Part shown: positions 2,589-11,389 of the stretch, piece after piece
Layout: every line of letters starts with the position of its first letter
Position numbering within the stretch: position 1 is the stretch's first letter
Virus record (IMG/VR): IMGVR_UViG_3300023487_000022
DNA: 11,441 nt
Strand: one strand, 5' to 3'
Source: a virus
Lineage: Duplodnaviria > Heunggongvirae > Uroviricota > Caudoviricetes
Made by a program: the position numbers and the translations under genes
Notes under the pieces: model-generated
The model's database searches: none
Told to the model about the DNA's origin: nothing
What the model saw: the letters and a program-made list of their open reading frames with translations, nothing else

Positions 2589-3158
2589 TTAGTTGTTCAG
2601 ATAGGCATCCGGAACGCGCACATAAAAGTTTCTTTCGCCGGTCAGTTCCAGAGTAACGTTTATGTCGTTGCCGTTATCCAGCGTAGCCGTCGCTTTATAG
2701 AACTTGTCCGTCACCTTGTCCTGAATTGTCACCTTCATACATTTCGGCGCTGTGGTTCCGTTATTCTCTTTCAGAATGGTCGTTACGAGAGGACAAGCCG
2801 CTTCTTCAAGAGCAACCTCTTCCTGGTGTGGGATACCGATGAAGATGTTACCAGCAAGCAACGCGACGATTACGATAAAAGGAAGTCGACTGCCTTTTGT
2901 AACGGTGGCACGTTTCCAGAGATAGACCGGAAGGAGAAATACTCCCCACAGGATGGCCGGTGGTTCATACCCTGCATCAGACAATGCCATTCTGTCAGCC
3001 ACCAGAAAGCCGAGTCCAGCGACTCCACCTATCACTATTGCATAATTCAAATACTCATCTGGCGGTGCTCCAAAGAAGAGAGGCAGTAAAGCTAGAAGCC
3101 ACGCATAAGCATTATTCAGAGGTTTTGTTTGTTGGTTCTGGGTTTCCATCACATCCAT
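2589..3158 (-). CDS. Hypothetical membrane protein (189 aa), hydrophobic N-terminal half and soluble C-terminal domain
   Basis: ORF track; hydrophobic stretches (WLLALLPLFF, AIVIGGVAGLGFLV, ILWGVFLLPVYLW, FIVIVALLAGNIFIGI). Start uncertain between ATG 3158 and ATG 3149; RBS weak. The overlapping plus-strand ORF 2436-3089 has a non-protein-like composition. Confidence 0.65.
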   Translation of the reverse strand: MDVMETQNQQTKPLNNAYAWLLALLPLFFGAPPDEYLNYAIVIGGVAGLGFLVADRMALSDAGYEPPAILWGVFLLPVYLWKRATVTKGSRLPFIVIVALLAGNIFIGIPHQEEVALEEAACPLVTTILKENNGTTAPKCMKVTIQDKVTDKFYKATATLDNGNDINVTLELTGERNFYVRVPDAYLNN

Positions 3159-3234
3159 TCCATCAGATTAAAAAGCGGTACTATGTTACCAATTTTCTTC
3201 GCTTATATGACATGATTACTCAACGAGTGGGCGA

Positions 3235-3555
3235 TCACCATTCCCATGCAGGTAGCCCATCCACCAGCTCGGCGTCGCAATCGAAGTGAACCACGTCAAA
3301 GCCGTCATCCAGTATGGTCTGTATGTTGGAGATCGCCTCTTGGGAAATGCCGTACTCACGCAGTTCTTCCTTCCAGTCATTCCCTCGCATTCCAGCACGA
3401 ACAATCCAGCCGTACTGTGTACCGTGTACCCAATTCAACCCGCGATCAGTAAGTGGGTCGAAGCAGGCAATGGGTAGCCGTTCTGAATCCGCTGCCGTTA
3501 CGTGGGCGGTGCTGATCACCGCCGTCTTATACGATTCGGTGATTTTCAGCATCAT
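3235..3555 (-). CDS. Hypothetical acidic protein (106 aa), translationally coupled to the upstream gene
   Basis: ATG at 3555 overlaps the TGA of the 3552-3788 CDS (ATGA overlap); AAGGAG upstream. About 18 D/E versus 8 K/R by hand count. Confidence 0.72.
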   Translation of the reverse strand: MMLKITESYKTAVISTAHVTAADSERLPIACFDPLTDRGLNWVHGTQYGWIVRAGMRGNDWKEELREYGISQEAISNIQTILDDGFDVVHFDCDAELVDGLPAWEW

Positions 3556-3788
3556 GCCTTCTCCTTTGGAAACAGAATGTTGGCCGTGTCAGAAATGACA
3601 TCCCAATTCACGCCGACGCTGGTGTCATGGCACTCTTTGATTTTTCGCAAAACCTGAACGCACTGTTCGTCAGTCAGGTCTGGTCGCACTTCACCTACAT
3701 CTTCCTTGTGCCACATCACCATCAGCAGCGGCTCGTCTTCTGGGTAGTTCTCCAGCTTTTCGATGATGTCTTTTGCGGTTCCGAACAT
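3552..3788 (-). CDS. Hypothetical small acidic protein (78 aa)
   Basis: ATG at 3788 with AAGGAG 6 nt upstream; the track start at 3806 is a TTG that contains this SD. Product MFGTAKDIIEKLENYPEDEPLL... Confidence 0.72.
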   Translation of the reverse strand: MFGTAKDIIEKLENYPEDEPLLMVMWHKEDVGEVRPDLTDEQCVQVLRKIKECHDTSVGVNWDVISDTANILFPKEKA

Positions 3789-3800
3789 GATCAACTCCTT

Positions 3801-3856
3801 AAACAATTTATTTTCTTATTTGTGTTATTATCTCAAATAACAAAAGGTAGAAAACA
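3801..3856 (-). promoter_or_regulatory. X-type conserved upstream module, copy 2 (GTTATT-N6-AATAAC dyad 3824-3841; AAACA/TGTTT-like dyads at 3801-3814 and 3851-3865)
   Basis: Homologous to 1033-1088; lies between the 3874-4140 and 3552-3788 genes. Confidence 0.55.
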
Positions 3857-3873
3857 AAATGTTTAAGGGATGA

Positions 3874-4140
3874 CTAGGTGAGTTTGAAGTCGTCTATGTC
3901 ATCAACAAACTCCATATACCTGGCTTCGACACTCGACAATCTGATCAGATACGCAAGCCCGTAACTTAGTGAAGTGGGTTGCTCCAGCACAAATTCGAAC
4001 CCATCCTCATGCGTTTTACCAAGCCAGAACCCCCCACCGTATTCTTTTTCACGTTGGAAGAAAACGAACTGTCCGGGTATTAGGTGCTTGAGTGCTTCGC
4101 CCCTATAGACGATCACATATTTAGAATTCTTGCTGCCCAT
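3874..4140 (-). CDS. Hypothetical protein (88 aa)
   Basis: ORF-track frame 3874..4197; start chosen at ATG 4140 because GAGG lies 6 nt upstream, while the ATG at 4197 has no SD. Confidence 0.6.
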   Translation of the reverse strand: MGSKNSKYVIVYRGEALKHLIPGQFVFFQREKEYGGGFWLGKTHEDGFEFVLEQPTSLSYGLAYLIRLSSVEARYMEFVDDIDDFKLT

Positions 4141-4228
4141 TGCTCGCCTCGCAATACTGTACATATAAACAGTATTATTTATTACGGTACTGGTCAACTT
4201 TACGGGTTAATTGAATAACAAGATGGTG

Positions 4229-4243
4229 AAAACAATTTGTTTT
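4229..4243. promoter_or_regulatory. Perfect 15 bp palindrome AAAACAATTTGTTTT in a divergent promoter region; candidate operator
   Basis: Seven-base arms around a central T, between the minus-strand start at 4140 and the plus-strand start at 4328; the strongest copy of the recurring AAACA-N-TGTTT dyad. Confidence 0.5.
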
Positions 4244-4327
4244 GGCACTTGAGATTTTGCAAATCGCACCTACATGGAAAACGGCAATTTTTGAAACCTG
4301 ATTTGACCCATGTGAAAGGAGGAAACG

Positions 4328-4531
4328 ATGAAGACCTATGATCGCAACCGTAACGCTATCACTACCGGCAGCCGAGTGATGGTGGCAACGAATGGTGCAA
4401 CGGGAGTCATCAAGGAAATCTGCGGAGAAGGCAAATCAGAAGAACAATTACGCCGCTCTGACTGCGTGTCTATCGAAGGTGTGGAAGGTCTATTCTGCCC
4501 AATGGATTTGGTTCGCCTGGGGTTCCATTAA
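4328..4531 (+). CDS. Hypothetical small protein (67 aa); candidate regulator
   Basis: ATG at 4328 with AGGAGG SD 5 nt upstream. It is the only plus-strand gene in the island and is transcribed divergently from the palindrome at 4229-4243. Confidence 0.72.
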   Translation: MKTYDRNRNAITTGSRVMVATNGATGVIKEICGEGKSEEQLRRSDCVSIEGVEGLFCPMDLVRLGFH

Positions 4532-4558
4532 TTTCACCATCTATAAAACAAATTGTTT

Positions 4559-4579
4559 AAGGCCACAACTAGTGGCCTT
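4559..4579. terminator. GC-rich inverted repeat AAGGCCAC-AACTA-GTGGCCTT between convergent genes; possible bidirectional terminator
   Basis: 8 bp stem, 5 nt loop. The T-rich tract on the minus-strand side is offset by about 6 nt, so terminator function is uncertain. Confidence 0.4.
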
Positions 4580-4586
4580 ATCTGGC

Positions 4587-5285
4587 TTACGGAACAGCGG
4601 TAATCAGATCGCAAATGCCTGTTTTAGTTAAATCACTATTCAGCTTCTGAAAATTGGCATTCAGCATTGCGGTATGTATTCGATTCTCAAGTTCAAAGAA
4701 GAGACCGATCTTGCCCTCTTTGGCTGCCACCTTCTTCCAAATATTCACCTGGTCATCTGCGATACGACTTGCGCAGGTGAACAAGAACGAACTCCCTCTG
4801 GGAAGGGATGTCGTGCTGTAGTATTCACCGTCAACTTCAATATACTTAGCTCGGAATGACTCCAGAGTTAGCTTTTTACCGCTCTCAGCCTGCTTTGTGT
4901 CTGCCTTGCTTGTCTTTTCCTGAACTTCAGGCTGTTTCTGCACAGGCTTTGGTGTCTCATTGACCACCGCAGTGCTGGCCGAACCATCCAAACTCTTGAG
5001 GCCATTAATTTGGATTAGATAAGCCAACTCCAGAGCCTTATCACCAGTGAGTTTTCCACGCATACTTACCCATTGACGCTGAACCGTCTTTAAGGCGTCT
5101 GCGTCCCCCGGGTTTGCTTTGAGTGCGTTGGAATAGGTAGAGCTAAGTTGTTCGTCTAATTTTGACAGGCGTTCGTTATCGCAGATTTTGTGTTCGATTT
5201 CTGCCGAAGCCTTTTGGCAGTCAAAGCTGGCTGCAAATACAGCCGGCGATGCCACCAACAATGATGCCAGTAGGATATTTTTCAT
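4587..5285 (-). CDS. Secreted protein with DUF1311 (LprI-like) N-terminal domain (232 aa)
   Basis: ATG at 5285 with GGAG upstream. Signal peptide MKNILLASLLVASPAVFA with an AXA-type cleavage site, followed by the Cys/Leu pattern FDCQKASAEIEHKICDNERLSKLDEQLSSTYSNALKA...QRQWVSMRG, which matches DUF1311 from memory. C-terminal domain unassigned. Confidence 0.78.
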   Translation of the reverse strand: MKNILLASLLVASPAVFAASFDCQKASAEIEHKICDNERLSKLDEQLSSTYSNALKANPGDADALKTVQRQWVSMRGKLTGDKALELAYLIQINGLKSLDGSASTAVVNETPKPVQKQPEVQEKTSKADTKQAESGKKLTLESFRAKYIEVDGEYYSTTSLPRGSSFLFTCASRIADDQVNIWKKVAAKEGKIGLFFELENRIHTAMLNANFQKLNSDLTKTGICDLITAVP

Positions 5286-5323
5286 ATTCACTCCATAAAT
5301 ATAAAAGCGCCTGACTATAGCAC

Positions 5324-5773: not shown

Positions 5774-6505
5774 TCAGCGGGGACTTAACAAAAGCGGAGA
5801 CTCGCTCGACAAGCCGGCCAGTGAACCAACATCCCCCCAATTCTGGTGTGTCAGCGCCCCGATACTTACCACTCCAGGCAGCACTTCTTTGTGGTTGTGG
5901 TAGTGCCCGGACAACAATAAACGGAAGCCGATATCTTTCAGTTCCTGTGCGTCGATGCCGACATCGGGCATGGTGGGGATCGCTTTGTTGATTGAGGTAT
6001 GTACAACAACATCATGGTTGTCACCATCCAGCCCGGAACGCAGCGTTTTGAGATCGCTGATAAGTTCTGCGTAGTTATTACGCCAGCTAATCAGATGGAC
6101 GGTTACGTCGCCCATTTTGATGGAATGAGGACGTTTGCCGCAGACGATTTCCACACCGATTGAGCGCAGAGAGGCTGCTGCATTGGCGCTGTATACGGAA
6201 TCGTTGGTTTCGAGGTCGTGGTTGCCAGCCAGCATTACCACCTTGAGACCCAACTCTTTGATGATCCACTCGTAAGTTTCGGTCACGAAATGCAGAACGG
6301 AAGGTGATATAGCACCGCGAACATGGAAGGTATCACCAGCTACCAGCATGTTCTTACAGCCAGCAGCTTTCATCGCTTTGGCCGCCTCCTTCGTAGCGTC
6401 CAGTTGGATCTCCAGCCGAGAGTTAAGCCCGTCAGCGTTTGTTGTCGCAAAAGCATCCCAACGATGATAATGGGGATCTGATATTACCCCGTATGGCAAT
6501 GTCAT
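5774..6505 (-). CDS. Calcineurin-like metallophosphoesterase (243 aa)
   Basis: ATG at 6505 with AAGGA upstream. Ordered motifs ISDPHYH, GDTFHVRG, GNHD and GHYHNH match the metallophosphatase signature (D-x-H, GD-x-x-D/H-R-G, GNH[DE], GH-x-H). Confidence 0.75.
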   Translation of the reverse strand: MTLPYGVISDPHYHRWDAFATTNADGLNSRLEIQLDATKEAAKAMKAAGCKNMLVAGDTFHVRGAISPSVLHFVTETYEWIIKELGLKVVMLAGNHDLETNDSVYSANAAASLRSIGVEIVCGKRPHSIKMGDVTVHLISWRNNYAELISDLKTLRSGLDGDNHDVVVHTSINKAIPTMPDVGIDAQELKDIGFRLLLSGHYHNHKEVLPGVVSIGALTHQNWGDVGSLAGLSSESPLLLSPR

Positions 6506-6848: not shown

Positions 6849-6875
6849 GTGTCTTTCTAAGACACCATATTTTAT
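6849..6875 (+). terminator. Hairpin GTGTCTT-TCT-AAGACAC followed by CATATTTTAT; candidate plus-strand rho-independent terminator
   Basis: Perfect 7 bp stem, 3 nt loop, T-rich tail on the plus strand only; lies just after a 31-codon plus-strand ORF (6745-6840). Confidence 0.45.
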
Positions 6876-6901: not shown

Positions 6902-7546
6902 TTAAAACGTCTCTGAGGGCTTCTGACGCGCTCTGCTAATGTCTATTACCCCAGCTTTTGGACGAGGGTCTACAAGATTCAACTCTTCAGCACTGTGATA
7001 CTCCGTGTCGAACTCCCGATCGACATGGCGAATGTAAATGGCTGTCAGAAGGCTGTTATCATTCAGAAAGTGTCCGTAAGATTTGCGAATTACTTCGCCA
7101 ACCTTCTCAATCTTCTCTCCGCCCATGCAGAGATGGTTAAATCGGCTGTGTTTCCGCAGCATTTCATCCACCGGGCCTGAGTAGACCTTATCAACTCTCC
7201 CGAACCGGATGATATTTCCGGTATCAGCTTCAACCAGACAAACGAGTTTGCCAGGTTCGACACGATCTCGCCAAGTGACACCAGAGCGCAGTGTGTTGAA
7301 GTAGGGAGCATCCAATCCGATGATCGGTTTACGAAATGCTAGTAGTGGCACGTAACGTATGCAGCTGTTTAGGTGGAAATGCGCACCGGCGTCGTGGAGT
7401 TTAAGCCGGGTTTCGTTAATCGGGCATTTCGAAGCAATGCCGCAAAGGTCGCAGAGCAACTTCTGTTTGTTCAGACTAGTGTTTGATTCAATGGTGTAGG
7501 AGCCATCTTCAAGACGGCGAACCCAGCGCGTGCGTTTAAGATCCAT
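6902..7546 (-). CDS. Hypothetical protein (214 aa) with a CDLCGIASKC Cys cluster
   Basis: ORF track, ATG at 7546, weak RBS. No family recognised. Confidence 0.6.
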   Translation of the reverse strand: MDLKRTRWVRRLEDGSYTIESNTSLNKQKLLCDLCGIASKCPINETRLKLHDAGAHFHLNSCIRYVPLLAFRKPIIGLDAPYFNTLRSGVTWRDRVEPGKLVCLVEADTGNIIRFGRVDKVYSGPVDEMLRKHSRFNHLCMGGEKIEKVGEVIRKSYGHFLNDNSLLTAIYIRHVDREFDTEYHSAEELNLVDPRPKAGVIDISRARQKPSETF

Positions 7547-7645
7547 AATTCTTGTTCAAATAATTTTGTCCGGGGCAACGATAACGGATAAGGCGCACCG
7601 GAGTTTGCAAATGCCTGTTTACTTATTCACTTTATTCACAGGCCC

Positions 7646-7703
7646 GATCCAATATTTAGATCCCCAGAGAGATCCTACAGAAGATCAAAAGAGATCCCCG
7701 ATC
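7646..7703. promoter_or_regulatory. GATC (Dam site) cluster, 6 sites in 58 bp; origin-like element
   Basis: GATC at 7646, 7659, 7671, 7683, 7693 and 7700, next to an AT-rich segment and just upstream of iteron cluster 1; this resembles the arrangement at P1-type origins. Confidence 0.5.
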
Positions 7704-7744
7704 GTCTCCAGCGCTTGCGGTTACTGGCTTGAGAAGGGGTTACT

Positions 7745-7846
7745 ATCCACTATAGGGAGCAAAATAACCACTGTAGAGAGCATAATAACCGCTATGAAGA
7801 GCAAAACAACCTCTCTGGAGAGTAGTCGGTATCCACTGTAGTGAGT
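7745..7846 (+). repeat. Iteron cluster 1: 5 direct repeats, about 21 bp spacing, core A(A/T)CCACT(A/G)TAG(A/T)GAG
   Basis: Copies at 7745-7760, 7766-7781, 7787-7802, 7808-7823 (degenerate) and 7831-7846. Confidence 0.8.
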
Positions 7847-8127
7847 AGGAGACAATGTTTTAACTGGATAACTCCGAGCCTGTTTTTCTGCGGCAGATGG
7901 CTGATATTCTTGGAAATATTGTAAATTTTGCGTTGCGGCGTGTTTATTTCGATCACACATTATCCCCAGAAGGGGAGTGATGCCTGATTTTGTAATTATC
8001 TGATTTTTATACACAGGCCCGATCCAGTAATTCAGATCCCTGTTAGAACCAAAGAGAACCACAAAGACCCAAAGAGATCCCCGGCCCTTGCAAACCGTTG
8101 TGCCACATGGCTTTAGAGGTTATCGAT

Positions 8128-8249
8128 ATCCACTATAGTGAGAAGAACAACCACTATAGAGAGTAAATCAACCACTATGGAGAGTAGAAAAACCGCTGTA
8201 GGCGGTAGGATAACCACTGTGATGGGTGCTACTATCCACTGTAATCAGT
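8128..8249 (+). repeat. Iteron cluster 2: 6 direct repeats at 21-22 bp spacing, immediately upstream of repA
   Basis: Copies at 8128-8143, 8149-8164, 8170-8185, 8191-8206, 8212-8227 and 8234-8249. Confidence 0.82.
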
Positions 8250-8288
8250 AAAGGCACCCAAGCCGTCGAATAAAAAGAGACATTTGGA

Positions 8289-9344
8289 ATGAGCGTAAAC
8301 GACAATAAAAACATTGCGATAAGCGAAGCATTTTCCGAAACAGACAAAAAGACCGGCGAAGTTGTTACGTTAGTTCCTAACACCAACAACACAGTTCAGC
8401 CTGTTGCTCTGATGCGTCTTGGTCTCTTCGTTCCGACGCTGAAATCGACATCCAGGGGTAGAAAGGGGCAAATGGTCTCTATGGACGCCTCCGCTGAACT
8501 CAAACAGCTGTCTCTGGCCAAAGCCGAAGGGTACGAGGATATAAGGATTGCTGGTCTTCGTCTTGATATGGATAACGATTTCAAAACATGGGTGGGCATC
8601 ATCCACGCGTTCGCCAAGCACAAGGTTGTTGGTGACACCGTCACGTTGCCGTTCGTCGAGTTCGTCAGACTTTGTGGCATACCAACAGCCAGATCGTCCG
8701 CGAAGTTACGTAAGCGCCTGGACAGCTCTCTAAGTCGTATCGCCACAAACACCATCTCATTCCGCAGCAAAGGCTCTGAAGAGTATTACGTTACGCACCT
8801 TGTGCAGACGGCAAAGTACAGTACCAAGAATGACACGGTCGAACTGAAGGCCGATCCTAAGATTTTCGAACTTTACCAGTTCGACAAAAAGGTGCTTTTG
8901 CAACTTCGGGCCATCAACGAACTCTCCAGAAAGGAATCCGCGCAGGCGCTCTACACCTTCATTGAAAGTTTGCCACCAGACCCGGCGCCAATCTCATTGG
9001 CTCGCTTACGCGCCAGACTTAACTTAACCAGCCGCACCATTACCCAGAATGCGACAGTCAGGAAGGCGATGGAGCAGCTGCGAGAGATCGGCTATCTCGA
9101 TTACACTGAAGTGAAACGCGGCAGCTCGGTCTACTTCGTCATCCACTATAGACGGCCGAAGTTACGTTCGGCACTGCCGCCATCTATGGCTACGCCTGAA
9201 GAGCCAGAAGATATCTTGCCAGGTGATGATCCGGAGGACATTATCGATGTTGCCCCTGAAGAAAAAGACGGGGAAATGGTCATGTTGAGCAAGGAAGAAC
9301 TGGCGATTCTCGAAGAGCTGCGCAAGGCAAAGGCTCGCAAATAG
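8289..9344 (+). CDS. repA: Iteron-binding replication initiator RepA, RepFIB/P1 RepA family (351 aa)
   Basis: Product contains [57 protein letters not shown] and [10 protein letters not shown], which I recognise as conserved in P1 RepA and RepFIB RepA. Flanked on both sides by iterons. Confidence 0.9.
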
Positions 9345-9347
9345 CCC

Positions 9348-9947
9348 AACCACTGTAGAGAGTAAAAAGGCTCACTATCTACTGTAGTGAGCCTTTTTGT
9401 TTATCGGAAATGCAATATCCACTGTAGTGAGTAAAAGAAACCGAAGAATAACCACTGTAGGCAGTGCGCACAAATCGCGAAGTAAATGTTAGTGGTTGCA
9501 AACATAGATAAAACAAGGGCTGAGAGGTTAGCGGTCACTGGGTATCTCTGTTAAGTCTACTCTCTACAGCGGTTATCGTCGCTCTCCTCATTGTTGACTA
9601 TCCACTGTGAAGAGCAGAATTGGCTGACTTGACCTCTATCCACTGTAGTGAGTGGATATCCGTTTAAAACAGCGAAGATTTACTCTCCATAGTGGATATC
9701 CGCTGGAGGGGGCATTCCATCACTCTCTATAGTGGTTGTTTGTAGTCAGTGAACGCCTGTTTACTCACTACAGTGTATAGCGACCCCGATAATCACCAAT
9801 TTACTCACTACAGTGGATAGTTGATATCGTGGCAGAGGGTTTGCTCACTACAGTGGTTGGGGTGCATACCTGAAGGGTGTTCTACTCGCTACAGTGGTTA
9901 TGAGCCGGATTCACACGCGGTGAGCTGGCTACTCACCGCAGTGGATA
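9348..9947. repeat. Downstream iteron array, about 14 copies in both orientations (incA-like)
   Basis: Direct copies at 9348-9363, 9378-9393, 9417-9432, 9450-9465, 9598-9615 and 9638-9653; inverted copies at 9559-9576, 9682-9701, 9721-9738, 9763-9780, 9803-9820, 9843-9860, 9884-9901 and 9930-9947. Confidence 0.8.
9369..9402 (+). terminator. repA rho-independent terminator: GGCTCACTA-TCTACTG-TAGTGAGCC then TTTTTGTTT
   Basis: 9 bp stem beginning 25 nt after the repA stop, followed by a T-run; the stem is built from iteron-like sequence. Confidence 0.6.
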
Positions 9948-9953
9948 GTGTTA

Positions 9954-10166
9954 TCAGTGGATTTTCTTCAGCAGACCCCAGAGTGTCCCGGCCTTCGTTG
10001 CGAGCTTACCTGTTTCCGGATCGTACATGTGCCATTCACGTCGCTGGTGGACAATATACCCATCTTCACGTTCCAGTCGTTCCAGTACGCCGGACTGCTT
10101 GAACCCTTTGGCACGCCAGTAGCCGCTTGTTTTTTCGATTTCCAGACCTGTCAGTGTAACCGCCAT
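9954..10166 (-). CDS. Hypothetical small protein (70 aa), translationally coupled
   Basis: ATG at 10166..10164 overlaps the TGA of the upstream gene (TGATG); the track start at 10169 is a TTG. Product MAVTLTGLEIEKTSGYWRAKGF... Confidence 0.62.
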   Translation of the reverse strand: MAVTLTGLEIEKTSGYWRAKGFKQSGVLERLEREDGYIVHQRREWHMYDPETGKLATKAGTLWGLLKKIH

Positions 10167-10501
10167 CAACTAATCTCCTTGCAGTCATCGAAAAGGTAGC
10201 TGTCGTTCTTCGCGTGAACGCCGTATACATCACCCGATTTGTTGTAAACGAATCTATCTTTACCTACGCCAGATAGTTCGCCGTTACGTTTAGTGAGAAA
10301 CGGGGAAGACAGGACGCGATCATCGCGTACCACATAAAACTGTTCGCCACGGTCCACAACCATCGCGCCGTAATTAGCTTTAACGACGTTGCGGATCAGG
10401 CCGTTTTTCGCTTCGACCACAAACATTTCGCACTCATAGACATGTGTGTCCGCAAAGACGGGGAGAGTGAGCAGCGCCAGTACCAGGGCTGTTTTCTTCA
10501 T
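10166..10501 (-). CDS. Hypothetical exported protein with Sec signal peptide (111 aa)
   Basis: MKKTALVLALLTLPVFA then DTHVYEC, consistent with an AXA cleavage site. ATG at 10501 overlaps the stop of the upstream small ORF (ATGA). Confidence 0.65.
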   Translation of the reverse strand: MKKTALVLALLTLPVFADTHVYECEMFVVEAKNGLIRNVVKANYGAMVVDRGEQFYVVRDDRVLSSPFLTKRNGELSGVGKDRFVYNKSGDVYGVHAKNDSYLFDDCKEIS

Positions 10502-11172: not shown

Positions 11173-11389
11173 TCAACAAAAACTGGCCACCGAGTTAGAT
11201 TTTTTCCAGTATCGATTTTCCGATTCATTTGGGGGTAATCCACCGTTATATTCGTGCGGTCTTAGTGCGCTGTAATATCCAACGATATAGTCCGTTATGG
11301 CGTGAGCTGCCTCGCTGAAGCTTACGTAACCCACCACCGGCATCCATTCGTTCTTCAGACTCCTGAAGAAGCGTTCCATTGGGCTGTTG
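11173..11389 (-). pseudogene. C-terminal fragment of an IS3-family transposase (OrfB tail), truncated upstream
   Basis: Reads ...SVNSPMERFFRSLKNEW...YYSALRPHEYNGGLPPNESE, resembling the conserved IS3-family DDE-domain tail (DNAxxESFFxxLKxE ... RxHxxLGxxxPxEFE). An in-frame stop at 11390-11392 sits just upstream of the conserved motif, and no other frame continues the homology. Confidence 0.55.

What the first reader, a model, noticed from the sequence alone, without database searches (positions are those of the whole stretch)
6902..7546. Unassigned 214 aa Cys-containing protein encoded immediately upstream of the replication origin
The gene ends 100 bp from the first origin-like module and is transcribed away from it. 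It contains a CDLCGIASKC motif, suggesting metal binding, and I recognise no family. Genes adjacent to iteron origins often act in replication control, partition or resolution.
Basis: inference. Interest (0 to 1): 0.35.

Follow-up and report, generated by a model that had tools for sequence, protein, structure and literature searches.

The report
Cys4–ASCH phage gene beside plasmid origin
The gene next to the plasmid origin is a real, strongly conserved phage gene for a metal-binding protein with an ASCH (PUA-like) nucleic-acid/base-binding fold; it belongs to the phage's recombination gene block, and the origin was inserted beside it, so it is probably not a plasmid-maintenance gene.

Summary
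The ORF at 6902-7546 (-), 214 aa, and its CDLCGIASKC motif are real. The window comes from an SSU5/pHCM2/pMT1-type phage-plasmid. The gene is SSU5 gp070 (98.6% identical) and is under strong purifying selection (dN/dS 0.025).

No sequence-profile library names the protein. A confident AlphaFold model (pLDDT 89) matches only ASCH-domain proteins, such as YqfB, ZmASCH and EF3133. The protein has three parts:
- an N-terminal Cys4 module (C32, C35, C41, C62), invariant in 118 full-length relatives;
- a divergent ASCH barrel with invariant T85, R87 and H138;
- a roughly 40-aa tail.

In 28 of 28 related viral loci the gene lies between recA and sbcD-sbcC, and none of them has a RepA. More than 5000 RepFIB/P1-type plasmids, and phage P1 itself, lack the gene. 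The repA-origin cassette therefore appears to have been inserted next to it in the phage-plasmid clade.

A plasmid-maintenance role is not supported, but it is not excluded. Within that clade the adjacency is conserved, the tail is clade-specific, and the Cyrano homologue is transcribed in the plasmid state.

The most likely function is a nucleic-acid-binding protein with a base pocket, possibly a hydrolase, working in phage recombination or repair.

This is a new variant of a known fold and of modest interest.

The parts
6902..7546 (-). Complete gene, 214 codons plus stop; orthologue of SSU5 gp070 and Cyrano CYRAN_64
   Evidence: ORF list. 98.6% identical to SSU5 gp070. phrog_2105 matches the full length, E 1e-136. 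dN/dS 0.025 against SSU5.
7349..7546 (-). N-terminal module, residues 1-66, with four invariant Cys (C32, C35, C41, C62). It is a predicted metal site; Zn or Fe-S is undetermined.
   Evidence: All four Cys are 118/118 in alignment A3. pLDDT is 90-94 except for residues 21-30. The module has no structural match of its own. About 6 of 28 viral homologues lack it.
7424..7453 (-). CDLCGIASKC motif (C32-x2-C35-x5-C41)
   Evidence: Read directly from the sequence. Invariant in A3.
7022..7348 (-). Divergent ASCH (PUA-like beta-barrel) domain, residues 67-175
   Evidence: AF2 model with pLDDT 96-98 over this stretch. The top 16 PDB fold matches are all ASCH proteins; YqfB 9kyf_B has TM 0.79 and rmsd 2.6 A over 110 columns. 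Viral ASCH proteins match in BFVD.
7271..7300 (-). Family signature F83-N84-T85-x-R87-x-G89-x-x-W92 on strand beta-2. This is the position of the ASCH GxKxx[ET]xR motif.
   Evidence: T85 and R87 are 118/118, N84 is 115/118 and W92 is 110/118. HMMER aligns T85 with YqfB T24 and R87 with YqfB R26.
7133..7150 (-). H133-x3-N137-H138 motif, aligned with YqfB H70...E74-N75
   Evidence: H138 is 118/118, N137 is 117/118 and H133 is 100/118. Alignments.
6905..7021 (-). C-terminal tail, residues 176-214, found only in the RepA-linked phage-plasmid clade
   Evidence: The tail is 37-48 aa in the window, L033, L034 and L035. It is 3-18 aa in 21 of the 23 viral loci measured; the other two carry unrelated tails of about 30 aa. 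D180, Y183, H184, E188, D193 and R207 are invariant in A1. dN/dS 0.08.
7631..7849 (.). Origin-like module 1: DnaA-box-like TTATTCACA (7632-7640), six GATC (7646-7703), five 21-bp iterons (7743-7849). This is context, not part of the gene.
   Evidence: The GATC/DnaA-box block is conserved upstream of the gene in Cyrano, SSU5, L033 and L034.
8006..8252 (.). Origin-like module 2: TTATACACA, three GATC, six iterons just upstream of repA
8289..9344 (+). repA, a Rep3/RepFIB-P1-type initiator, divergent from the gene
   Evidence: Pfam Rep3_N, E 2.4e-11. Annotated repA in NZ_CP086388. 46% identical to P1 RepA.
5774..6505 (-). Truncated sbcD-like gene, the conserved downstream neighbour of the family
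   Evidence: 96% identical to SSU5 gp073 over residues 1-231, then diverges; 243 aa against 361 aa. phrog_100 SbcD-like.

Best explanation
The ORF encodes a two-module protein. An N-terminal Cys4 metal-binding module is packed onto a divergent ASCH (PUA-like) beta-barrel. The phage-plasmid clade adds a tail of about 40 residues. The gene is a lineage-wide core gene of the DNA replication, recombination and repair block of SSU5/nickie-like siphoviruses of about 100-112 kb. The order of that block is 5'-3' exonuclease, RecA, this gene, SbcD, SbcC, RuvC, Nrd.

Shown:
- the gene, the fold, the conserved residues, the synteny and the distribution.

Inferred:
- Like other ASCH/PUA-like proteins, it binds nucleic acid and takes a nucleobase or nucleotide into the barrel pocket. 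The pocket is lined by N84, T85, R87, H133, N137, H138 and Y157.
- The YqfB nucleophile Thr, oxyanion Arg, His70 and Tyr89 equivalents are kept, but the catalytic Lys and Glu are not. An invariant His (H138) sits next to the Glu position. It may therefore be a hydrolase with an altered Thr/His-type site acting on a modified or damaged base. If not, it is a non-catalytic reader.
- It acts during phage DNA recombination or repair alongside RecA and SbcCD.
- It lies beside the iteron origin because a RepFIB/P1-type repA-ori cassette was inserted between recA and this gene in the ancestor of the phage-plasmid clade. The protein is not a component of the iteron replicon.
For: Fold:
- The AF2 model built on 118 sequences has pLDDT 89.2 and pTM 0.80.
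- The top 16 PDB matches are all ASCH proteins, in two independent models. BFVD returns viral ASCH proteins.
- One family member hits Pfam ASCH at E 1e-4. Phage Cyrano's curators annotated the homologue as ASCH.

Pocket:
- T85, R87 and H138 are 118/118. N84, N137, W92, R95 and G158 are at least 90% conserved.
- The best, though non-significant, PDB sequence match of the family profile is YqfB. It aligns T85=T24, R87=R26, H133=H70, N137=E74 and Y157=Y89.
- These YqfB residues are catalytic or substrate-binding (PMC6972931).

Synteny:
- A degenerate-motif scan of IMG/VR gave 28 loci, all true homologues.
- RecA lies upstream in 25 and SbcD downstream in 22, which is every locus with enough flank bar one (L023, no sbcD hit in about 1.4 kb downstream). 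SSU5-type RepA is found in 0 of 28.
- Nickie shows the same order.

Not a replicon part:
- RepA-family plasmids number at least 5000, against 839 plasmids with this gene.
- P1/P7 have RepA but no homologue of this gene, and nickie-like phages have the reverse.
- In L035, RepA is 2.2 kb away with three genes in between.

Selection:
- dN/dS is 0.025.
Against: - No biochemical or genetic data exist for any family member.
- Sequence-level similarity to ASCH is weak: there is no Pfam hit for this protein, and hhalign against YqfB gives probability 19%.
- The residue equivalences at T85 and R87 rest on one non-significant HMMER alignment plus strand register. hhalign shifts them by two positions. 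I could not inspect model coordinates.
- The canonical ASCH Lys is not conserved (position 82 is variable), so catalysis is uncertain.
- Within the phage-plasmid clade, three observations fit a plasmid-state role better than a purely lytic one: RepA adjacency is conserved down to 42% identity; the tail is clade-specific and selected; and CYRAN_64 is transcribed in lysogeny at 31.5 normalised counts, against 7.5 for sbcD and 133 for repA.
- In this window sbcD is truncated and sbcC is gone, yet the gene is intact.
Confidence: 0.55

Rival explanations
1. Co-opted plasmid-state factor. In the phage-plasmid clade the protein, through its clade-specific C-terminal tail, has acquired a role at or near the origin. 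Possible roles are copy-number modulation, origin handling, or the switch between plasmid and lytic replication.
For: - RepA is divergent and 320-740 bp upstream in the window, SSU5, Cyrano, L033 (57% identity) and L034 (42% identity).
- The origin's DnaA box and GATC block lie 85-170 bp upstream of the start codon in all of these.
- The tail of about 40 aa occurs only in this clade and has invariant residues; its dN/dS is 0.08.
- CYRAN_64 is among roughly the top 20% of Cyrano genes in lysogenic culture. In four other conditions it lies within 0.3-1.4 log2 units of repA (about 2 in LB), while sbcD and sbcC stay at background.
- The gene remains intact next to a truncated sbcD in this window.
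Against: - Thousands of RepFIB/P1-type replicons, including P1, work without the gene.
- In L035 the gene is 2.2 kb from RepA.
- Adjacency and intactness can be explained by a single ancestral insertion plus hitch-hiking with repA.
- Lysogenic transcription can be a by-product of sitting outside repressor-controlled operons.
- The fold has no precedent in replication control, partition or resolution.
Confidence: 0.17
2. RNA- or nucleotide-directed ASCH enzyme. Like characterised ASCH proteins, it would deacetylate N4-acetylcytidine (free or in tRNA) or cleave single-stranded RNA. It would serve nucleotide salvage, host takeover or counter-defence rather than DNA recombination.
For: - All biochemically characterised close structural matches act on ac4C or RNA. 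YqfB is an ac4C amidohydrolase (PMC6972931). Nineteen ASCH proteins erase tRNA ac4C (bioRxiv 10.64898/2026.02.27.708502). ZmASCH is an ssRNA RNase (cited).
- The Thr, Arg, His and Tyr equivalents of the YqfB site are conserved.
- SSU5 itself encodes a GNAT acetyltransferase immediately downstream.
- The phage carries a large nucleotide-metabolism block.
Against: - The Lys that is essential in every tested ASCH deacetylase is not conserved here, and the Glu/Thr-Lys dyad is incomplete.
- The gene's conserved neighbours are DNA recombination enzymes, not RNA or nucleotide-salvage genes.
- The GNAT is absent from this window, from Cyrano and from the viral loci.
Confidence: 0.15
3. What matters to the origin is transcription of the gene, not its protein. 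A promoter firing away from the DnaA-box/GATC side of the origin would add negative supercoiling behind RNA polymerase and help origin opening. Established precedents are gidA at oriC and pR at ori-lambda.
For: - The gene starts 86 bp from the DnaA-box-like site and reads away from it.
- This geometry is conserved in four lineages.
- The Cyrano homologue is transcribed in the plasmid state while the next gene downstream is not.
Against: - No convincing sigma-70 promoter was found between the DnaA box and the ATG.
- P1 and RepFIB origins do not need such a gene.
- Strong purifying selection on the protein shows that the product itself matters.
- This idea explains only the position, not the gene.
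Confidence: 0.06

Closest known systems
E. coli YqfB, N4-acetylcytidine amidohydrolase (minimal ASCH domain; PDB 9KYF/9KYH, 1TE7)
   Same: - It is the best structural superposition: TM 0.79 normalised to YqfB, rmsd 2.6 A over 110 columns.
- The order of strands and helices is the same.
- The aligned equivalents of Thr24, Arg26, His70 and Tyr89 are conserved in this family (T85, R87, H133, Y157).
   Different: - Sequence identity is only 12-13%. The protein has no Pfam ASCH hit.
- The YqfB catalytic Lys21 position is variable and Glu74 is Asn here, with an invariant His next to it.
- This family adds an N-terminal Cys4 module and, in this clade, a C-terminal tail.
- Its genomic context is phage recombination genes, not a stand-alone cellular gene.
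ZmASCH (Zymomonas mobilis ASCH ribonuclease, PDB 5GUQ/5Y6B) and EF3133/DUF984 (1T62)
   Same: These are the top Foldseek E-values for the high-confidence model, 1.1e-3 to 3.5e-3 with probability 1.00. They share the ASCH barrel and a nucleic-acid-binding cleft.
   Different: TM scores are lower (0.42-0.48) and identity is 11-14%. No Cys4 module is reported for them.
BapA, a 5-hydroxymethylcytosine DNA glycosylase with ASCH-like barrels (bioRxiv 10.64898/2026.02.25.707755)
   Same: It is a precedent for an ASCH-type barrel acting on a flipped DNA base. That is the kind of activity proposed here for a gene in a DNA-repair/recombination block.
   Different: BapA is a bacterial anti-phage defence protein with two barrels and a catalytic Asp. 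No invariant acidic residue exists in this family. No direct comparison was made.
P1 oriR-repA and RepFIB iteron replicons
   Same: The neighbouring repA (46% identical to P1 RepA) and the origin anatomy (DnaA box, GATC cluster, 21-bp iterons) are of this type.
   Different: Those replicons have no ASCH-like gene. The gene studied here is not part of that system.

Membership tests
ASCH superfamily (Pfam PF04266 / PUA-like clan) | [quoted passage not shown] | tested here: met
   AF2 model with pLDDT 96-98 over residues 67-175. The top 16 PDB hits are all ASCH proteins in two models. More distant hits are other PUA-like domains: the McrB N-terminal domain, SRA and EOLA1.
ASCH superfamily (Pfam PF04266 / PUA-like clan) | Significant match to the Pfam ASCH profile | tested here: not met
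   No Pfam family at E <= 0.1 for this protein. Only 1 of 118 relatives hits PF04266, at E 1e-4. hhalign against a YqfB alignment gives probability 19%.
ASCH superfamily (Pfam PF04266 / PUA-like clan) | Signature GxKxx[E/T]xR motif on strand beta-2 | tested here: inconclusive
   The [E/T] and R positions are kept and invariant (T85, R87). The K position (82) and the G position (80) are variable. The register comes from a non-significant HMMER alignment and from strand length.
YqfB-type N4-acetylcytidine amidohydrolases | Thr-Lys-Glu catalytic triad plus Arg oxyanion hole (PMC6972931) | tested here: not met
   Thr and Arg equivalents are present. The Lys equivalent is not conserved and the Glu equivalent is Asn137. 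The protein should not be filed as a YqfB-type enzyme.
YqfB-type N4-acetylcytidine amidohydrolases | Hydrolysis of N4-acyl-cytosine or cytidine | not testable with these tools
   This needs an enzyme assay.
Iteron-plasmid maintenance proteins (Rep, copy-control, Par, resolvase) | Homology to a known Rep, ParA/ParB, HTH/RHH regulator or site-specific recombinase family | tested here: not met
   No hit in Pfam, NCBIfam, PADLOC or PDB sequences. The fold matches are ASCH only.
Iteron-plasmid maintenance proteins (Rep, copy-control, Par, resolvase) | Co-distribution with the replicon across plasmids | tested here: not met
   The RepA family is in at least 5000 plasmids, against 839 for this gene. 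28 of 28 viral loci have the gene without RepA. P1/P7 have RepA without the gene.
Iteron-plasmid maintenance proteins (Rep, copy-control, Par, resolvase) | Copy-number or stability phenotype on deletion | not testable with these tools
   No published experiment was found. The one possibly relevant preprint (10.64898/2026.08.19.745698) could not be opened.
Cys4 metal-binding modules (zinc finger or [4Fe-4S]) | Four conserved Cys ligands | tested here: met
   C32, C35, C41 and C62 are 118/118 in full-length relatives. The motif is also present in nickie. Clustering of the four thiols in 3D and the identity of the metal could not be checked, because no coordinates were available.

The most novel reading that the evidence does not exclude
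In the SSU5/pHCM2/pMT1 phage-plasmid clade, an ancestral phage recombination protein with a PUA-like modified-base pocket has been recruited to the plasmid origin through a new C-terminal tail. There it would read or process bases in the Dam-methylated GATC cluster that begins 100 bp upstream of its own start codon. It would thereby tune initiation or the switch between plasmid and lytic replication, acting as a SeqA-like or anti-SeqA function built on an ASCH fold.
Probability: 0.06. Interest if true: 0.75.

Novelty: new variant of a known kind. Interest (0 to 1): 0.3.

Why it matters
The gene is present and intact in at least 839 sequenced plasmids of Klebsiella, E. coli, Enterobacter, Salmonella and Yersinia pestis (pMT1). 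It is annotated almost everywhere as 'hypothetical protein'. Placing it in the ASCH fold gives it a testable biochemical identity, with a defined Cys4 site and a defined Thr/Arg/His pocket. Its fixed position between recA and sbcCD in a whole lineage of ~100-kb siphoviruses points to an unrecognised accessory of phage recombination or repair. The result also shows that a gene touching an iteron origin need not belong to the replicon. If the ASCH pocket proves catalytic without the canonical Lys, it would extend the chemistry known for this superfamily.

Tried and rejected
- Sequence libraries gave nothing usable. Pfam, NCBIfam and PADLOC returned no hit. PHROGs returned only unknown-function families. 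PDB sequence searches with the protein, with A1 and with A3 returned only non-significant hits.
- The first AF2 run, on 18 close homologues, was poor (pLDDT 55). It was replaced by a run on 118 diverse sequences.
I used TTCAAYACN4MGN4GGN4GCNTGG-gap-AAYCAY instead. This pre-selects the FNTxRxGxAW/NH motifs, so residue conservation was judged only on the unbiased profile search.
- hhalign against YqfB, as a single sequence and as a low-diversity alignment, gave only 14-19% probability. The homologous-protein search with YqfB returned only relatives that were at least 83% identical.
- Promoter search upstream of the gene was inconclusive.
- The terminator-like hairpin at 6849-6865 has its T-run on the wrong strand.
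- Considered and rejected as identities:
  - UvsY-like mediator or SSB, because Cyrano already annotates both elsewhere;
  - a defence-system component (no PADLOC hit);
  - a non-coding RNA or tRNA in the region, since Rfam and ARAGORN found none.
- The heteroresistance preprint on repA and copy number could not be opened.
- Model coordinates are not exposed, so the geometry of the pocket and of the Cys cluster was not checked.

Full report
**1. Observation**

The ORF at 6902-7546 on the minus strand (ATG start, 214 aa) is in the mechanical ORF list. Its translation contains LLCDLCGIASKCPI. The codons for C32 and C41 lie at 7451-7453 and 7424-7426.

The start codon faces an origin-like region. 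That region has a DnaA-box-like TTATTCACA at 7632-7640, six GATC sites at 7646-7703, and five 21-bp iterons at 7743-7849. A second, similar module follows at 8006-8252 (TTATACACA, three GATC, six iterons). Then comes repA at 8289-9344. RepA carries Rep3_N and Rep3_C domains.

**2. Source element**

The 1.7 kb around the gene is 100% identical to E. coli plasmid p1585m1_B. It matches 484 mostly non-mobilizable plasmids of about 105-120 kb from Escherichia, Enterobacter, Yersinia, Salmonella and Citrobacter.

The protein is 98.6% identical to gp070 of Salmonella phage SSU5 and 85% identical to CYRAN_64 of phage-plasmid Cyrano. The window is therefore a piece of an SSU5/pHCM2/pMT1-type phage-plasmid.

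It is a degraded piece. The downstream sbcD is truncated after residue 231 of 361, and sbcC, ruvC and nrd are missing. The left half of the window carries genes that are not part of the SSU5 backbone, and an IS3-family fragment closes the window.

**3. Is it a real gene?**

Yes.
- The identical protein heads a cluster of 537 sequences.
- tblastn finds it in 839 plasmid records. Of these, 823 cover at least 80% of the protein, and they include 63 Y. pestis pMT1 records at 97.7% identity.
- An exhaustive profile search finds 310 clusters at 50% identity.
- dN/dS against SSU5 is 0.025 at dS 0.36. It is low in all three parts of the protein.

**4. What the protein is**

Pfam, NCBIfam, PADLOC and PDB sequence searches give nothing. 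PHROGs gives only unknown-function families.

An AlphaFold model built on 18 close homologues was poor (pLDDT 55). Even so, its top 16 PDB fold matches were all ASCH-domain proteins. A second model, built on 118 diverse relatives, is confident: pLDDT 89.2, pTM 0.80, and 96-98 over residues 61-150. Its top 16 PDB matches are again all ASCH proteins:
- ZmASCH;
- EF3133/DUF984;
- PH0355;
- AF2351;
- YqfB, with TM 0.79 and rmsd 2.6 A over 110 columns;
- a Lactobacillus ASCH protein;
- PF0455.

More distant PUA-like domains follow (PF0470 falls just below McrB-N). BFVD returns viral ASCH proteins. One relative hits Pfam ASCH at E 1e-4, and the Cyrano curators had already called the homologue 'ASCH RNA-binding domain'. 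Residues about 67-175 are therefore a divergent ASCH barrel.

Residues 1-66 are confidently modelled but match nothing. They contain four Cys (C32, C35, C41, C62) that are invariant in all 118 full-length relatives. The motif is also present in phage nickie as CxxCx5Cx9C. Whether the metal is Zn or an Fe-S cluster cannot be told. From memory, the Cx2Cx5C spacing equals that of the last three Cys of the EndoIII/MutY 4Fe-4S loop. That is a lead, not a test. About 6 of 28 viral homologues lack this module altogether, so the core function lies in the barrel.

**5. The pocket**

T85, R87 and H138 are invariant across the 118 sequences. N84, N137, W92, R95, G89, G158 and F71 are at least 90% conserved. 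H133, Y157 and Y171 are 82-85% conserved.

The family profile's best PDB sequence match is YqfB. The match is not significant (E 0.46), but it aligns T85=T24, R87=R26, H133=H70, N137=E74 and H138=N75. hhalign confirms the H133, N137 and Y157=Y89 equivalences at low probability.

In YqfB:
- Thr24 is the nucleophile;
- Lys21 is the base;
- Glu74 is the acid;
- Arg26 forms the oxyanion hole;
- His70 and Tyr89 help bind the substrate (PMC6972931).

The Lys is essential in every ASCH deacetylase tested (bioRxiv 10.64898/2026.02.27.708502). In this family the Lys position (82) is variable and the Glu is replaced by Asn, with an invariant His beside it. The substrate-pocket residues look retained, but the catalytic machinery is altered. 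My inference is that the protein is either a hydrolase with a Thr/His-type site or a non-catalytic base reader. It is not a YqfB-type enzyme.

**6. Genomic context beyond this plasmid**

In Pseudomonas phage nickie the homologue lies in the order exonuclease, RecA, a hypothetical gene, the homologue, SbcD-like, SbcC-like, RuvC, NrdA. There is no RepA.

A degenerate DNA pattern for the family motifs found 28 IMG/VR loci, mostly from contigs of 90-112 kb. All 28 contain true homologues. tblastn with SSU5 and nickie neighbours shows the same order everywhere. RecA lies upstream in 25 loci and SbcD downstream in 22, which is every locus with enough flank bar one (L023 shows no sbcD hit in about 1.4 kb downstream). 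The gap to sbcD is often only 75-260 bp. A RepA profile hits none of the 28.

The two gene families barely overlap in distribution:
- RepA homologues occur in at least 5000 plasmids, mostly conjugative IncFIB, and in P1/P7 phages, none of which carry this gene.
- The nickie-like phages carry this gene and no RepA.

The simplest reading is that the gene is an ancestral member of the phage recombination/repair block. A repA-ori cassette, with a few small genes, was inserted between recA and this gene in the phage-plasmid ancestor.

**7. Evidence that keeps the plasmid idea alive**

- Adjacency within the clade. RepA is divergent and adjacent in the window, SSU5, Cyrano, a Klebsiella lineage (57% identity, 320-bp gap) and a metagenomic lineage (42% identity, 328-bp gap). 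In a fourth lineage (46% identity) RepA is 2.2 kb away. In the adjacent cases the origin's GATC/DnaA-box block lies 85-170 bp upstream of the start codon.
- The tail. The C-terminal tail of about 40 aa, with invariant D180, Y183, H184, E188, D193 and R207, occurs only in these RepA-linked lineages. It is under purifying selection.
- Expression. In published RNA-seq of the LF82 lysogen, CYRAN_64 averages 31.5 normalised counts. RepA averages 133, sbcD 7.5 and sbcC 11.8, and most lytic genes fall between 5 and 12. In four other conditions its log2 values are 6.5-7.3, against 7.4-8.3 for repA and 3.3-4.8 for sbcD (PMC9928086, supplementary table).

The gene is therefore transcribed in the plasmid state. 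This could reflect co-option. It could reflect a gidA-like transcriptional effect on the origin. It could also simply reflect a weak constitutive promoter. No convincing sigma-70 promoter was identified.

**8. Verdict**

The metal-site inference is supported. The 'no family' statement is replaced by 'divergent ASCH fold with a Cys4 module'. The plasmid-maintenance inference is not supported by fold, co-distribution or synteny, although clade-specific features leave about a one-in-six chance of a plasmid-state role.

The most likely mechanism is a nucleic-acid-binding protein with a base pocket, possibly hydrolytic, acting with RecA and SbcCD in phage recombination or repair (confidence about 0.55). 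The fold, synteny and conservation are shown. The substrate and the activity are inferred.

The family is an uncharacterised variant of a known superfamily. It is of modest general interest, but it is worth a proper annotation because it is widespread in clinically relevant phage-plasmids.

Noticed in passing
window 7631-7849 and 8006-8252: There are two tandem origin-like modules upstream of repA. Each has a DnaA-box-like 9-mer, a GATC cluster (6 and 3 sites) and 21-bp iterons (5 and 6 copies; consensus ATAACCACTnTAGnGAGTAnA). The roughly 375-bp duplication also includes a 27-nt block (7631-7657 and 8006-8032, 89% identical). The Klebsiella and L034 lineages have only about 320 bp between repA and the gene, so the duplication seems specific to the SSU5/Cyrano branch.
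   Followed up: partly
window 5774-6505 (-): The sbcD-like gene is truncated. It is 96% identical to SSU5 gp073 through residue 231 and then diverges (243 aa against 361 aa). sbcC, ruvC and nrd are absent downstream. This plasmid is therefore a degraded phage-plasmid whose recombination module is broken, while the ASCH-like gene stays intact.
   Followed up: partly
window about 1700-2400: This is a strongly strand-asymmetric stretch, G/T-rich on the + strand (GC skew up to +0.43, AT skew down to -0.47). It has no convincing ORF, no Rfam hit and no tRNA. Its nature is unknown.
   Followed up: no
window 11173-11379 (-): This 68-aa ORF matches the C-terminal integrase-core domains rve_2 and rve_3 (E 1e-5). 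It is the end of an IS3-family transposase running off the window. The closest plasmid also has IS3 and IS26 copies nearby.
   Followed up: partly
L002 (SSU5) 9721-10215: SSU5 encodes a GNAT acetyltransferase immediately downstream of the ASCH-like gene. It is absent here and in Cyrano. GNAT plus ASCH pairings are described in other prokaryotic systems (PMC7641849), and ASCH proteins are deacetylases of ac4C, so the pairing may be meaningful in SSU5.
   Followed up: no
L007, L009, L010, L019, L023, L030 (IMG/VR loci): These homologues occupy the same recA-[gene]-sbcD position but lack the N-terminal Cys4 module (ORFs of 127-181 aa that match the profile only from position 61 onward). The metal module is therefore an accessory to the ASCH core.
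   Followed up: partly
window 2589-5291: The left half of the window is not SSU5 backbone. It carries a DUF5983 protein (3235-3555), a DUF1380-type neighbour (per the NZ_CP086388 annotation), YdfZ (4328-4531, + strand) and an LprI-like lipoprotein (4587-5291).
   Followed up: no
L020, L026 and L018 (IMG/VR loci); Cyrano CYRAN_55: The recA genes upstream of the homologue are split into two tblastn pieces about 1 kb apart, or are unusually long (2340 bp in Cyrano; a LAGLIDADG homing endonuclease is annotated in NZ_CP086388). This suggests inteins or homing endonucleases inserted in recA in several lineages.
   Followed up: no
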